Part shown: one piece after another, positions 4,511 through 53,261 of the stretch
Position numbering within the stretch: position 1 is the first letter of the stretch
How the letters are laid out: each line of letters opens with the position of its first letter
IMG/VR virus record: IMGVR_UViG_2061766007_000586
Span: 128,001-192,000 of that record
DNA from: a virus
Taxonomy: Duplodnaviria > Caudoviricetes
Strand: one strand, 5' to 3'
DNA length: 64,000 nt
Notes under the pieces: model-generated
Databases searched by the model: none
Told to the model about the DNA's origin: nothing
Seen by the model: only the letters and a program-made list of their open reading frames with translations
Translations under genes and position numbers: made by a program

Positions 4511-4551
4511 AAATAATTTCTCCTTATTAAGGTTAAAAATAGAAGAAGGGA

Positions 4552-5382
4552 TTAACCCTTCTTCTTAGACTTGTTAATTTTGTTACTCCAGACAATGGTC
4601 TCTGTAAAGATTCCATTGTCACCTTCATCAATTTCATTGATGATCTGTGTACCGTCCTCAATCAAGAGTCCATCAAGAGATGATAACTTTGCTCCATCAA
4701 AAGCTTTGCGATAGATTTTAACCGTATTGAGAACTTTCACATTTTTAAATGTGATATCATCTCCACCGTAGATGCTAAGTGTACCGGTGTTAACAGATAC
4801 GTCTTCCATAACACCTTTATACACTCTCAACTCACCGTTAGATTCACATGTTTTGATGGAACCACCACGAAGGTAAACCATGGCTCTTTCACAGATCTTA
4901 GATCCGGATAAAATTCCACCATCGTAAATCATGCAATTTGAATTGGCAAGAAGAGATGTATGATTGATATGTGTACCATTATGGATCGTGCATACACCAT
5001 CAATGATGGCAATATAGCCATTAAAATGGAATGTGAGTTCGGGTGTATAATCAGCATCTTTGAGAAATACGGAACCACCTTCTTCCGAAATATCTCGAAC
5101 AGTGGCGTTCTTAACGAACAGTTCACCTCTTTGCCAAAGACTGATCTTTTCAATCTCACCTTCAATGGCTTGTACTTTACCACCCTGCTTAACTGTCACT
5201 GTGGAAACTTTACCACCGTTAACAATAAGCTCGGTACAAACAAAGTGAGGATTACCTTGATCATCGATCAAGCATCCGCACTGATCTTCATGAAATCCTT
5301 TGTCGTTCATGACAACGACATTTGAGATAAAATCTCCAGGACCAACAGCAATCGTACAAAGTGCATGCTTTTTAATTTGCAT
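4552..5382 (-). CDS. AIDA-like beta-helix repeat protein
   Basis: 276 aa; VTVKQGGKV, ISLWQRGEL, ISEEGGSV repeats paralogous to neighbours. Confidence 0.75.
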   Translation of the reverse strand: MQIKKHALCTIAVGPGDFISNVVVMNDKGFHEDQCGCLIDDQGNPHFVCTELIVNGGKVSTVTVKQGGKVQAIEGEIEKISLWQRGELFVKNATVRDISEEGGSVFLKDADYTPELTFHFNGYIAIIDGVCTIHNGTHINHTSLLANSNCMIYDGGILSGSKICERAMVYLRGGSIKTCESNGELRVYKGVMEDVSVNTGTLSIYGGDDITFKNVKVLNTVKIYRKAFDGAKLSSLDGLLIEDGTQIINEIDEGDNGIFTETIVWSNKINKSKKKG

Positions 5383-5906: not shown

Positions 5907-6194
5907 TTATCGAGGTGTATATTGACATTCTGTTGTAACTTCGAAAATATTCTTTGAACAAAGATCACAGATAGGAAATTGCTTCTTATCTGTTTTGAAA
6001 TTTGCACAACTTGTACATTTTTTGATTTGTGGAATACTGTAGATAAATTTTGCATTAGCATTAACAGCACACCAAATACCATCGATGTCATTTTTGAAAG
6101 TTTGAATTGCTCCTAACAAAAATAACTTATCCTGCTTGAGCATATTGATTTGCTGCTGAAGCTCTTTGATTTTCTTACGATTGAAAAGATCCAC
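5907..6194 (-). CDS. Small early protein: coiled coil plus CxxC...CxxC zinc-finger
   Basis: GTG start with SD GGAGG; KKCTSC...ICDLC; first gene after the promoter motif at 6229-6238. Confidence 0.7.
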   Translation of the reverse strand: MDLFNRKKIKELQQQINMLKQDKLFLLGAIQTFKNDIDGIWCAVNANAKFIYSIPQIKKCTSCANFKTDKKQFPICDLCSKNIFEVTTECQYTPR

Positions 6195-51687: not shown

Positions 51688-51697
51688 AAATATTTGA

Positions 51698-51731
51698 ATA
51701 CAAGGTAGTGGGACATTCCACTACCTTGTAT
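51698..51731. terminator. Bidirectional terminator
   Basis: ATACAAGGTAGTGG/CCACTACCTTGTAT. Confidence 0.8.
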
Positions 51732-51733
51732 CT

Positions 51734-52048
51734 TTATATACTGCATGAGCTTAATAATTGATCAACATAATTCGATAAGTTATTACTAATTTCTAAACAA
51801 GCATTTCGATTCAACATTGTAAATTCACCTGGAGTAACTTCTTGAACTACTCCAAGAGCTACTAAATATCTAGCAGCATTTAAATACTTTGATAGATTTA
51901 CCGTACTTCGCTCACTACACAATAGCATTGTTAGTGCGTTTAGTACATCGTCTACTGTGGCAGCAGGTTGGTTATTTTGCATTACATAGATTTTATTTGT
52001 AACAACCACCTGCTTTTCAACATGTAAGAAACAATGGGAGGTATACAT
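51734..52048 (-). CDS. Small hypothetical protein (winged-helix-like pattern)
   Basis: ARYLVALGVVQEVTPGEFTM resembles a wHTH wing; start uncertain. Confidence 0.5.
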   Translation of the reverse strand: MYTSHCFLHVEKQVVVTNKIYVMQNNQPAATVDDVLNALTMLLCSERSTVNLSKYLNAARYLVALGVVQEVTPGEFTMLNRNACLEISNNLSNYVDQLLSSCSI

Positions 52049-52060
52049 AGTTACTAGCCC

Positions 52061-52507
52061 TTACATACTCTCGAGGAAGAACTCTGCTTTTGGTATGAAA
52101 CTAAGTTCCATGATAGCAATCGGATCTCCTCGATCAGCATTGAAAATTGGTTTATGATTATTTTTAATTGTTAGAATAATTTCTGAATTATGTTCCGACG
52201 TAATCATGTAAGGGTTAATGACTTCTATTCCATCTTCTTCACGTAATTCTGGAATGGAATAAAATTTTGCAACTGTGTTAATTCTTATTTTAGGAGTTGT
52301 GTTAAGGGTTAATTCTGGATAGGTTAAAAGAATAATTCCAGTATGGACTTGAAGATAATTGTTATATGCTAAACTAATTTCTTGATTTGTTTTTAGATAA
52401 ACGATACCTAATTGATCTCGAAGGTAAGGTGATGGAACACATAAAGGTGAAGCATCATCTGTTAATTTATATCGTATATCTAAAACAGGAATAGTAATAA
52501 TCGCCAT
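52061..52507 (-). CDS. Degenerate trimeric dUTPase-fold protein
   Basis: VHTGI, EIILTIKN, GDPIAIMEL patterns present; catalytic motifs 2, 3 and 5 not recognisable. Confidence 0.55.
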   Translation of the reverse strand: MAIITIPVLDIRYKLTDDASPLCVPSPYLRDQLGIVYLKTNQEISLAYNNYLQVHTGIILLTYPELTLNTTPKIRINTVAKFYSIPELREEDGIEVINPYMITSEHNSEIILTIKNNHKPIFNADRGDPIAIMELSFIPKAEFFLESM

Positions 52508-52549: not shown

Positions 52550-52657
52550 TGGTTGGGACGTCTGGGTTTGAACCAGAATTGCCTTCTTGCTGCCTAGCAT
52601 CCTCGTTAGTACTAAGCTGGCGTACGGAGTCCTGCCTATACTTTAGACTACGTCCCA
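52550..52657 (-). ncRNA. tRNA-like RNA (108 nt) with non-canonical expanded anticodon region
   Basis: Acceptor TGGGACG/CGTCCCA, A, CCA; D-arm GTCT/AGGC; T-arm TCTGG-TTCAAAC-CCAGA; ~55 nt between D and T arms. Confidence 0.7.
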
Positions 52658-52660
52658 ATA

Positions 52661-52836
52661 TGATCGGCTGTTGCAAGATTCGAACTTGCTTCTCCAAACG
52701 TGAAACTATTAAACGGGATTAATCGATTAAATCTTACAATCTTCTTGAAGAAGGTGTTTCACATACTTGGTATGCTATCTTGTCCTGAAGTCGTACTAAG
52801 GTCGACCACGTGCTTCAACACTACACCAAACAACCG
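52661..52836 (-). ncRNA. tRNA-like RNA (~176 nt) with large insertion
   Basis: Acceptor CGGTTGTT/AACAGCCG then ATCA; D-arm GTGT/GCAC; T-arm GCAAG-TTCGAAT-CTTGC; ~120-nt structured middle. Confidence 0.65.
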
Positions 52837-52843
52837 AAATAAA

Positions 52844-52926
52844 TGGTGCTGAGGGCGGGACTCGAACCCGCATGGATTGCCCGGCAGATTTTAAGTCTGC
52901 TGCGTATGCCATTTCGCCACCCCAGC
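52844..52926 (-). tRNA. tRNA-Leu(TAA)
   Basis: GCTGGGG/CCTCAGC acceptor, anticodon arm GCAGA-CTTAAAA-TCTGC, variable arm, GCGGG-TTCGAGT-CCCGC, ACCA end. Confidence 0.95.
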
Positions 52927-53230: not shown

Positions 53231-53261
53231 TCATCTCTGCAGCATGTAGCTGCAGAGATGA
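53231..53261. terminator. Bidirectional terminator
   Basis: TCATCTCTGCAGC/GCTGCAGAGATGA. Confidence 0.75.

What the first reader, a model, noticed from the sequence alone, without database searches (positions are those of the whole stretch)
52661..52836. 176-nt tRNA-like RNA: intact acceptor/D/T arms with a ~120-nt structured insert in place of the anticodon arm
Seen: on the minus strand, the acceptor can be drawn with 8 bp (CGGTTGTT/AACAGCCG) followed by A-TCA. It has a 4-bp D-stem and a canonical TTCGAAT T-loop. The middle holds a small hairpin GTCG-ACCTTAGTA-CGAC and a long stem CCAA..GTGAAAC/GTTTCAC..TTGG with internal hairpins. It sits 7 nt downstream of tRNA-Leu in one early transcript. 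Known: C1-G72 plus A73 are tRNA-Pro identity elements, and 8/5 folds occur in tRNA-Sec. Inference: a tRNA-scaffolded functional RNA processed by RNase P, for example a decoy for anticodon nucleases or a synthetase/ribosome binder. It does not look like simple decay, because all outer stems keep their pairing.
Basis: partly seen in the sequence, partly recalled or inferred. Interest (0 to 1): 0.78.

Follow-up and report, generated by a model that had tools for sequence, protein, structure and literature searches.

The report
Anticodon-less tRNA-shaped RNA in jumbo phage
A giant rumen phage encodes, just after a normal leucine tRNA, a 176-base RNA that has the ends of a tRNA but a 120-base folded insert where the decoding part should be; it most likely cannot read codons, resembles the unexplained "stable RNAs" of phage T4, and its role is unknown.

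Summary
Window 52661-52836 (minus strand) has an 8-bp acceptor stem, a drawable 4-bp D stem, a 5-bp T stem with a TTCGAAT loop, and 120 nt in between. It starts 7 nt after tRNA-Leu(UAA). It is not a decoding tRNA. ARAGORN (default) and Rfam miss it, and no single excision restores a canonical anticodon arm. Two other insert-bearing tRNAs in the same 318-kb phiKZ-like genome do become perfect tRNAs that way.

Five strain variants show that the tRNA-like ends, the first hairpin and the base of the long arm are almost invariant. The two distal hairpins are hypervariable (40% mismatch plus indels, against 2-8% in the flanks) but keep pairing, with three compensatory pairs. Two closely related strains lack the element precisely. 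More distant lineages carry other anticodon-less tRNA mimics at the same slot.

The phage also encodes a Ro60-like ring protein (DUF2828-vWA) inside its tRNA array, flanked by RNAs that carry a conserved CAGCAA module. A model of that module does not match this element.

Best reading: an accessory, non-decoding tRNA-scaffold RNA, closest to T4 species 1 and 2 RNAs. Earlier notes of this scan describe the same kind on other phage DNA. Expression, processing and function are not shown.

The parts
52661..52836 (-). Element A: 176-nt tRNA-shaped RNA gene (position p = 52837 - coordinate)
   Evidence: five variants aligned
52829..52836 (-). Acceptor 5' strand CGGTTGTT (pos 1-8)
   Evidence: pairs counted (100% paired; one U-A to U.G change)
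52665..52672 (-). Acceptor 3' strand AACAGCCG (pos 165-172)
   Evidence: A166G in L015 and L107 keeps the pair as U.G
52661..52664 (-). A173 plus TCA; reads ACCA (encoded CCA) in one variant
   Evidence: 52663 A>G in the contig of run X18
52810..52826 (-). D-arm-like GTGT-AGTGTTGAA-GCAC (pos 11-27); no GG in the loop
   Evidence: invariant; not favoured in MFE folds
52789..52807 (-). Hairpin H1, GGTCG-ACCTTAGTA-CGACT (pos 30-48): 5 bp with a 9-nt loop, not a canonical anticodon arm
52771..52788 (-). Conserved linker TCAGGACAAGATAGCATA (pos 49-66)
   Evidence: invariant except G52A in L105
52694..52770 (-). Long arm (pos 67-143): CCAA/TTGG and GTGAAAC/GTTTCAC stems enclosing two hairpins
   Evidence: G-C to G.U in L105 keeps the pair
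52707..52748 (-). Hypervariable distal part (pos 89-130): tips of the two inner hairpins
   Evidence: 40.5% mismatch plus 34 gap columns in L105 against 2-8.5% in the flanks; 20-nt insertion in L106, L015 and L107; three compensatory pairs
52673..52689 (-). T arm GCAAG-TTCGAAT-CTTGC (pos 148-164)
52844..52926 (-). tRNA-Leu(UAA), 7 nt upstream of A
52550..52657 (-). Element B: second anticodon-less tRNA-shaped RNA (108 nt, 7-bp acceptor, encoded A-CCA), 3 nt after A
   Evidence: T-stem pair U-A to A-U in L105
52942..52951 (-). TATATATAAC, promoter-like motif ahead of tRNA-Leu (assignment inferred)
   Evidence: exact match, but the motif is not enriched in the window
53231..53261 (-). Terminator-like hairpin ending the upstream gene
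51697..51732 (-). Terminator-like hairpin after the two downstream ORFs (52061-52507 and 51734-52048), the likely end of the unit

Best explanation
Element A is an accessory gene for a non-decoding, tRNA-scaffolded small RNA. It is probably transcribed together with tRNA-Leu and element B. The acceptor/T minihelix (8 + 5 bp, A73, and TCA or CCA) would let the host's tRNA-processing enzymes cut it out and keep it stable. These would be RNase P at the 5' end and 3' trimming with CCA addition at the 3' end. The region where a tRNA has its anticodon and variable parts is replaced by cargo. The cargo consists of a conserved hairpin, a conserved linker, and a long arm with a conserved base and two freely changing hairpin tips. 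The conserved cargo is presumably the working part, most likely a binding surface for a protein. Shown: the shape, the lack of a usable anticodon arm, conservation of the core, structure-preserving hypervariability of the tips, and presence/absence among strains. Inferred: transcription, processing, stability and any ligand.
For: The shape and position are as described.

It is not a decoder. ARAGORN (default) and Rfam give no hit. No single deletion gives a 5-bp stem with a 7-nt U33 loop. The same test turns two other elements of this genome into perfect tRNA-Ile(GAT) and tRNA-Thr(AGT). Of roughly 2,400 deletion variants given to ARAGORN, 386 are called, with at least 15 different 'anticodons', so there is no unique solution.

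Conservation. In L105, positions 1-88 differ by 1.1% and 131-176 by 2.2%, against 6.8-8.5% in the neighbouring intergenic DNA and genes. Positions 89-130 differ by 40.5% plus indels. In L015 and L107 the flanks are only 70-79% identical, yet the core shows one change, which keeps its pair.

Structure. 98.6% of cells are paired, three pairs in hairpin 84-96 changed on both sides, and two one-sided changes keep pairs in the acceptor and the long stem.

One variant encodes CCA.

The same slot holds other anticodon-less tRNA mimics in other lineages (L022 and L112).

The architecture and placement match T4 rnaD/rnaC, which sit directly behind tRNA-Arg. rnaC has a GGGUUCGAAUCCC T arm closed by a terminal stem.
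Against: There is no direct evidence of transcription, mature ends or stability.

The tRNA arms never vary, so covariation says nothing about them.

MFE and alignment folds prefer other helices to the D stem and H1 (10-14/80-84 and 16-24/47-55). In two variants a 10-bp 'anti-T' pairing (98-107 with 157-166) replaces the T arm.

The element is absent from two closely related strains (X3 contig; L108), so it is not essential.

The 3' end is TCA, not CCA, in five of six variants.

No homologue was found beyond this narrow clade.
Confidence: 0.6

Rival explanations
1. A is an intron-bearing tRNA. The insert, or part of it, is removed, and the product decodes or suppresses a codon, for example with H1 as the anticodon arm.
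For: Two other tRNA genes of this genome carry ~40-nt inserts at position 28/29, and removing them gives perfect tRNAs. Similar 114-121-nt tRNA hits lie in other phages. Lak megaphages have tRNA introns (PMC6784885). Deleting positions 49-143 would leave H1 plus a 4-nt variable loop.
Against: No single excision gives a canonical arm. H1 has a 9-nt loop, or a 7-nt loop with C33. The supposed intron is the most conserved part, apart from its tips. The genome shows no RtcB and no splicing endonuclease. The insert is far too short for a group I intron, and Rfam finds none.
Confidence: 0.07
2. A is a decaying pseudo-tRNA or a recombination scar with no function of its own.
For: It is absent in two close strains. 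The 3' end is TCA instead of CCA. The middle is hypervariable. Distribution is narrow. L015-type variants carry an insertion resembling the leader upstream of tRNA-Leu.
Against: 134 nt of core stay almost unchanged while the flanks diverge by 7% (L105) to more than 20% (L015, L107). Changes in stems keep pairing, including three compensatory pairs. Replacements of the tips are always hairpins.
Confidence: 0.08
3. A is a Y-RNA-like partner of the phage's Ro60-like ring protein (DUF2828-vWA), as YrlA is for bacterial Rsr.
For: The 504-aa DUF2828/DUF7788 protein folds like Ro60: the 13 best PDB matches are all Ro60, Rsr or phage phiLo Ro60. In 78 of 80 viral loci this gene has tRNA genes within 2.5 kb, mostly in arrays around it, and CAGCAA is 20-fold enriched upstream. 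Known Y RNAs mimic tRNA, and phages encode them (PMC4201824, PMC12135203).
Against: A lies 50 kb from that gene. A model of the conserved GTGAYNC..A-CAGCAA module finds three sites next to the gene, but neither A nor B. A has GGACAA where the module has CAGCAA. The YrlA model and the GNCGAA motif do not match. B's CAGCAA is lost in L105.
Confidence: 0.1
4. A acts in cis as a processing or insulating signal (tRNA punctuation) or as a folding switch for the operon leader. It would separate tRNA-Leu from the downstream mRNA and would not be a free RNA.
For: tRNA-Leu, A, B and two ORFs lie between two terminator-like hairpins. An internal segment (98-107) can pair with the 3' half of the T arm, giving two competing folds.
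Against: Strains without A keep the same operon. B alone would already provide a processing site. The conserved cargo is not explained.
Confidence: 0.1

Closest known systems
Bacteriophage T4 species 1 (rnaC, 139 nt) and species 2 (rnaD, 119 nt) stable RNAs
   Same: Two oversized RNAs lie head to tail directly behind a tRNA gene in the tRNA cluster. rnaC has a canonical T arm closed by a terminal stem, with a large folded domain in between. As far as I know their function is still unknown, as it is for A.
   Different: No sequence similarity. A keeps a full 8-bp acceptor stem, a D-like arm and a tRNA-type 3' end. A's cargo tips are hypervariable, and A is present or absent among strains.
Y RNA-like tRNA mimics (YrlA, phage Yrl1/2) bound by Ro60/Rsr (PMC4201824, PMC12135203)
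   Same: They are non-decoding RNAs with tRNA-like T and D arms, some of them substrates of RNase P and the CCA-adding enzyme. The same phage encodes a Ro60-like protein.
   Different: In YrlA the RNA ends form the Ro-binding stem and the tRNA-like part is internal. In A the ends form the acceptor stem. A is not next to the Ro60-like gene. It matches neither RF02553, nor GNCGAA, nor this clade's CAGCAA module.
Insert-bearing tRNAs: Lak megaphage tRNA introns (PMC6784885) and the ~40-nt inserts at position 28/29 in this genome and in other DUF2828 phages
   Same: They are oversized tRNA genes in large phages, with good outer arms.
   Different: Those become canonical tRNAs when the insert is removed. 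A does not.
Engineered 'tRNA scaffold' for recombinant RNA (Ponchon and Dardel; from my own knowledge, not checked here)
   Same: Cargo replaces the anticodon arm. The tRNA body is said to give processing and stability in bacteria. This is the working principle proposed for A.
   Different: It is an artificial construct, whereas A is natural and its cargo is unknown.
tRNA-Sec (8/5 acceptor/T helix; from my own knowledge)
   Same: A 13-bp acceptor/T stack (8 + 5).
   Different: A has no UCA anticodon arm, no 6-bp D stem and no selenocysteine context. The resemblance is limited to the stem lengths.

Membership tests
Canonical decoding tRNA (RF00005) | Scores above the Rfam gathering threshold, or is called by ARAGORN without introns | tested here: not met
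   only tRNA-Leu is found; A gives no hit even at E<=10.
Canonical decoding tRNA (RF00005) | 5-bp anticodon stem with a 7-nt loop (U33, purine 37) between the D and T arms | tested here: not met
   H1 is 5 bp with a 9-nt loop, or has C33.
Canonical decoding tRNA (RF00005) | Acceptor stem, T arm with a TTCRANY loop, and 3' N73-CCA | tested here: met
   The acceptor stem is 8 bp rather than 7. The end is TCA in the window and CCA in one variant.
Intron-containing tRNA | Removing one contiguous insert yields a canonical cloverleaf | tested here: not met
   (positive controls: elements C and D of the same genome).
Intron-containing tRNA | A spliced RNA product exists | not testable with these tools
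   Only assembled contigs were available. Raw small-RNA reads are needed.
Group I intron in tRNA | Ribozyme core (P3-P9), usually 200 nt or more, recognised by Rfam | tested here: not met
   The insert is 120 nt, and Rfam gives no hit.
DUF2828 (Ro60-like)-associated CAGCAA module RNAs | GTGAYNC..A-CAGCAA motif (model R1, built from 71 instances) | tested here: not met
   R1 hits three sites upstream of the gene. In A the best partial hit is 3.4 bits.
DUF2828 (Ro60-like)-associated CAGCAA module RNAs | Lies within about 1 kb upstream of the DUF2828 gene | tested here: not met
   The gene is at genome position ~229.7-231.2 kb and A at 180.7 kb.
YrlA / Y RNA | Match to RF02553, a GNCGAAN0-1G motif, and adjacency to a Ro60 gene | tested here: not met
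   One search gives no YrlA hit. A has GUCGAC. A is not adjacent to the gene.
tmRNA | G3:U70, a tag reading frame, and a call by ARAGORN -m | tested here: not met
   Position 4 is U.G in the reverse orientation, and there is no tag ORF.
Phage tRNA-cluster stable RNAs (T4 species 1/2 type) | Oversized RNA gene in tandem directly behind a tRNA gene, with tRNA-like terminal stem and T arm and a folded insert | tested here: met
   This class is defined by architecture only; there is no sequence model.
Phage tRNA-cluster stable RNAs (T4 species 1/2 type) | Accumulates as a stable RNA processed by tRNA enzymes | not testable with these tools
   Needs a Northern blot or small-RNA sequencing and an RNase P assay.

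The most novel reading that the evidence does not exclude
The conserved tRNA chassis delivers a cargo whose two hypervariable, structure-preserving hairpin tips act as specificity determinants in a conflict. A could be a decoy or ligand for a tRNA-directed host immune factor, or a client or adaptor of the phage's own Ro60-like ring protein. The tips would then diversify, and the whole cassette would be gained and lost, under an arms race.
Probability: 0.12. Interest if true: 0.8.

Novelty: new member of a known kind. Interest (0 to 1): 0.45.

Why it matters
Phage tRNA clusters have long been known to hold oversized tRNA-like 'stable RNAs', such as T4 species 1 and 2, whose function is, as far as I know, still unknown. 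This element is a clear further example. Natural strain variation marks which parts matter: the tRNA ends, the first hairpin, the linker and the base of the long arm. It also marks which parts are free to change: the two hairpin tips. That gives a concrete target for pull-downs and deletions. The same genome offers a candidate protein world for such RNAs, a Ro60-like protein embedded in the tRNA array, although the link to this particular RNA failed the test made here.

Tried and rejected
1. Splicing. RNA-library contigs (runs X11, X17, X18) contain A unspliced, and no RNA run showed a joint. These are assembled contigs, and DNA may be present in the libraries. This is therefore evidence neither for transcription nor against splicing.

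2. The only joint (52659 to 52837, with 'CA' between) is in run X3, probably DNA. I read it as a strain lacking A, not as splicing. L108 shows a second A-less strain.

3. No similar DNA or protein in GenBank phages apart from generic tRNA-Leu hits.

4. IMG/VR pattern scans for the A cargo and for the A D-arm found nothing. Single-protein locus searches found no relatives.

5. The metagenome scan gave one true relative (L015). It also gave four contigs (L012-L014, L016) sharing a 20-mer in an unrelated intergenic region. About one chance match is expected for a database of that size. H1 is not conserved there, and I treat these matches as chance.

6. No paralogue of A or B in the genome by blastn or nhmmer.

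7. The shared 8-mer CTTAGTAC of A and B. My estimate of the chance expectation is ~0.1. In B it is a helix strand, in A a loop, and it is not kept in L105's B (TCTAGTAC). I reject it as a shared functional motif.

8. RtcB, tRNA splicing endonuclease and TROVE Pfam models find nothing in the genome.

9. Records behind ENA and Logan loci could not be searched whole.

10. The relatives at 62-64% and 39% protein identity that yielded DNA (L017, L018, L019) have no tRNA at this locus.

Full report
**What is there.**
- An 8-bp acceptor stem, CGGTTGTT/AACAGCCG, with one U.G pair, followed by A and TCA.
- A two-base linker, then GTGT-AGTGTTGAA-GCAC.
- 120 nt of other sequence.
- The T arm GCAAG-TTCGAAT-CTTGC, directly abutting the acceptor 3' strand.

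tRNA-Leu(UAA) ends 7 nt upstream. Three bases downstream lies a second odd element, B (52657-52550). It has a perfect 7-bp acceptor stem, an encoded A-CCA, D and T arms, and 56 nt of non-canonical middle.

A scan of the whole genome for a perfect T arm followed by an acceptor closure gave 37 rows. Of these, 29 lie at tRNA genes or tRNA-like elements and 8 elsewhere, in 637 kb of both strands. A position right behind a tRNA gene, with a D stem as well, is therefore not a chance event.

**Where it lies.** The window is part of a 318,604-bp viral record judged complete. Its virion protein is about 25% identical to proteins of phiKZ-like jumbo phages. Sequencing runs that hold it come from cattle and sheep gut.

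The genome has 20 ordinary tRNA genes and at least five tRNA-shaped genes with inserts. I call them A, B, C (genome 223437-223551), D (231591-231707) and E (231768-231906).

**It is not a decoding tRNA, and not a simple intron case.**
- ARAGORN in default mode and Rfam find nothing at A, even at E<=10.
- I listed every way of deleting one contiguous piece between the D and T arms and asked for a 5-bp stem with a 7-nt U33 loop. C and D each give a perfect tRNA (Ile-GAT and Thr-AGT) when homologous 39- and 41-nt inserts are removed at position 28/29. A and B give nothing acceptable.
- I passed roughly 2,400 deletion variants of A to ARAGORN. It made 386 calls with at least 15 different 'anticodons', so there is no unique solution.
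- The 120-nt insert is too short for a group I intron. The genome shows no RtcB and no splicing endonuclease.

**Comparative evidence.** Homologues of the two flanking genes gave a graded set of relatives. Five versions of A could be aligned: the window, L106, L105, L015 and L107.
- Positions 1-88 and 131-176 are almost invariant. The only changes are G52A, C135U (G-C to G.U in the long stem) and A166G (U-A to U.G in the acceptor stem). A sixth, partial variant changes TCA to CCA.
- In L105 the neighbouring intergenic DNA and genes differ from the window by 6.8-8.5%, and the two small downstream ORFs by 1.8-1.9%. The core of A differs by 1-2%. Positions 89-130 differ by 40.5% plus 34 gap columns.
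- In L015 and L107 the flanks are only 70-79% identical, yet the core has a single change.
- The variable part consists of the tips of two hairpins. Hairpin 84-96 grows from 5 to 7 bp through a 20-nt loop insertion, or is rewritten (TCTTCAG/CTGAAGA to TCTCTCG/CGAGAGA) with three pairs changed on both sides. The second hairpin is replaced by a longer, unrelated hairpin.
- Over my model, 98.6% of cells pair, against 35-46% when partners are slid. The tRNA arms never vary, so covariation is silent on them.

**Dispensability.** A contig of run X3 is otherwise identical to the window but joins 52659 to 52837 with two other bases in between. L108, a sister of L107, has tRNA-Leu, TTTATTT, C, TATT and then B. 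Both lack A exactly from its first to its last base.

More distant lineages carry other anticodon-less tRNA mimics at this slot. L022 has a 72-nt one with a 6-bp stem and a tetraloop. L112 has one of about 100 nt. L015 adds a tRNA-Trp after B. The relatives at 62-64% and 39% protein identity that yielded DNA have no tRNA here. The slot is thus a fluid cassette site, and A is an accessory gene of a narrow clade.

**How firm is the fold?** MFE folds keep the acceptor stem in all five variants and the T arm and long arm in three. In place of the D stem and H1 they prefer other pairings: 8-14 with 64-70, or 10-14 with 80-84 plus 16-24 with 47-55. In L015 and L107 a 10-bp pairing of 98-107 with the 3' half of the T arm wins. 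The G52A change fits the alternative 16-24/47-55 helix (U.G to U-A). Real tRNAs are often misfolded by such programs, but here the D arm and H1 must be called drawable rather than shown.

**The Ro60 lead.** Notes from other windows of this genome pointed to a DUF2828 gene preceded by tRNA-derived RNAs that share a 'helix + ACAGCAA' module. I checked this.
- The 504-aa protein carries DUF2828, DUF7788 and a weak vWA signal. Its AlphaFold model (pLDDT 85.8) has Ro60, Rsr and phage phiLo Ro60 as its 13 best PDB matches over its full length.
- In 78 of 80 IMG/VR loci this gene has tRNA genes within 2.5 kb, mostly in arrays around it.
- CAGCAA occurs 4.96 times per kb in the 600 nt upstream, against 0.23 per kb elsewhere. 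The consensus is TG(T/G)GAYNC..A-CAGCAA.
- 114-121-nt insert-bearing tRNA hits lie upstream in several phages. Rfam has no family for the module.

This makes a Y-RNA-like system plausible for those RNAs (PMC4201824, PMC12135203). A model of the module, however, hits only three sites next to the gene in this genome, and neither A nor B. A has GGACAA in place of CAGCAA and lies 50 kb away. B's CAGCAA is lost in L105. The link to A therefore remains a possibility only.

**Closest known.** In T4, tRNA-Arg is followed head to tail by rnaD (119 nt) and rnaC (139 nt). rnaC carries a canonical T arm closed by a terminal stem around a large folded domain. This is the same arrangement as tRNA-Leu, A and B. 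Earlier reports of this scan describe such 'tRNA chassis with cargo' RNAs in other phage genomes and name the same closest relative. A shares no sequence with any of them that I could find.

**Mechanism proposed.** Inferred: transcription from the AT-rich motif at 52951-52942 through tRNA-Leu, A, B and two small ORFs to the hairpin at 51732-51697. Inferred: RNase P and 3' trimming with CCA addition release A, because it offers the acceptor/T minihelix these enzymes recognise. Shown: it has no usable anticodon arm. Inferred: the invariant cargo (H1, the linker and the base of the long arm) is the functional surface, and the tips are spacers or specificity elements. I put this reading at 0.6. 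The rivals are a spliced tRNA (0.07), junk (0.08), a Ro60-like partner (0.10) and a cis-acting processing or switch element (0.10).

**Verdict.** This is a real, maintained but dispensable, non-decoding tRNA-shaped RNA gene. It is a new member of a poorly understood but known kind. It is of moderate interest in itself, and of more interest as part of this phage's unusually rich set of tRNA-derived RNAs.

Noticed in passing
window 52550-52657 (-): Element B is a 108-nt tRNA-shaped RNA with a 7-bp acceptor stem and encoded A-CCA but no anticodon arm. Helix 41-66 is kept through one-sided changes in the L015 type, and the T stem shows a U-A to A-U swap in L105. Its CAGCAA and the 8-mer shared with A are not conserved.
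   Followed up: partly
genome 223437-223551 and 231591-231707 (-), loci L002 and L005: Two tRNA genes become perfect tRNA-Ile(GAT) and tRNA-Thr(AGT) when homologous 39- and 41-nt inserts at anticodon-stem position 28/29 are removed. How such inserts would be removed, or whether they stay in, is unknown.
   Followed up: partly
L009:880-2394 (-) = genome ~229.7-231.2 kb: A DUF2828/DUF7788 protein is predicted to fold like Ro60. In 78 of 80 viral loci the gene has tRNA genes within 2.5 kb, mostly in arrays around it, and it is preceded by RNAs with a conserved TGKGAYNC..A-CAGCAA motif that has no Rfam family. This is a candidate undescribed Ro60/Y-RNA-like system.
   Followed up: partly
genome 127217-127293 (-), 708 nt before the window: A 77-nt tRNA-like gene has a GGGGCU 5' end, G3:U70 and an ACCA end. 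It scores 29.9 bits with the tRNA model and looks like a tmRNA tRNA-like domain without a tag region.
   Followed up: no
L022:~5925-6000 and L112:~270-375: Other lineages carry different anticodon-less tRNA mimics directly after the same tRNA-Leu. One has a 6-bp stem plus tetraloop, the other a 40-nt centre. Their acceptor stem GAAGTTG/CAACTTC differs from that of B.
   Followed up: partly
window 52730-52739 versus 52671-52680 (-): Segment 98-107 of A (TTGTAAGATT) is complementary to the 3' half of its own T arm (AATCTTGCAA). This gives a competing 10-bp helix, which wins in the predicted folds of two variants.
   Followed up: partly
L015:4740-4775 and L015:~4540-4565: The 20-nt insertion in the L015-type A carries TACTCTACTGA-AGATTG, nearly the same as the leader just upstream of that strain's tRNA-Leu (TACTCTACTGATAGATTG). 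This suggests a local duplication or recombination.
   Followed up: no
L012:1451-1470, also L013, L014, L016: An exact 20-mer of A's H1-linker (TTAGTACGACTTCAGGACAA) occurs in a conserved intergenic region of four unrelated metagenome contigs. It is probably chance, since about one match is expected for that database size.
   Followed up: partly
L015:4966-5039: A related strain has an extra tRNA-Trp(CCA) after B. The window's genome has no tRNA-Trp gene by ARAGORN.
   Followed up: no
window 52061-52507 (-): The 148-aa ORF downstream of B has no Pfam or PHROG hit. One source names a 66%-identical homologue 'dUTPase'.
   Followed up: no
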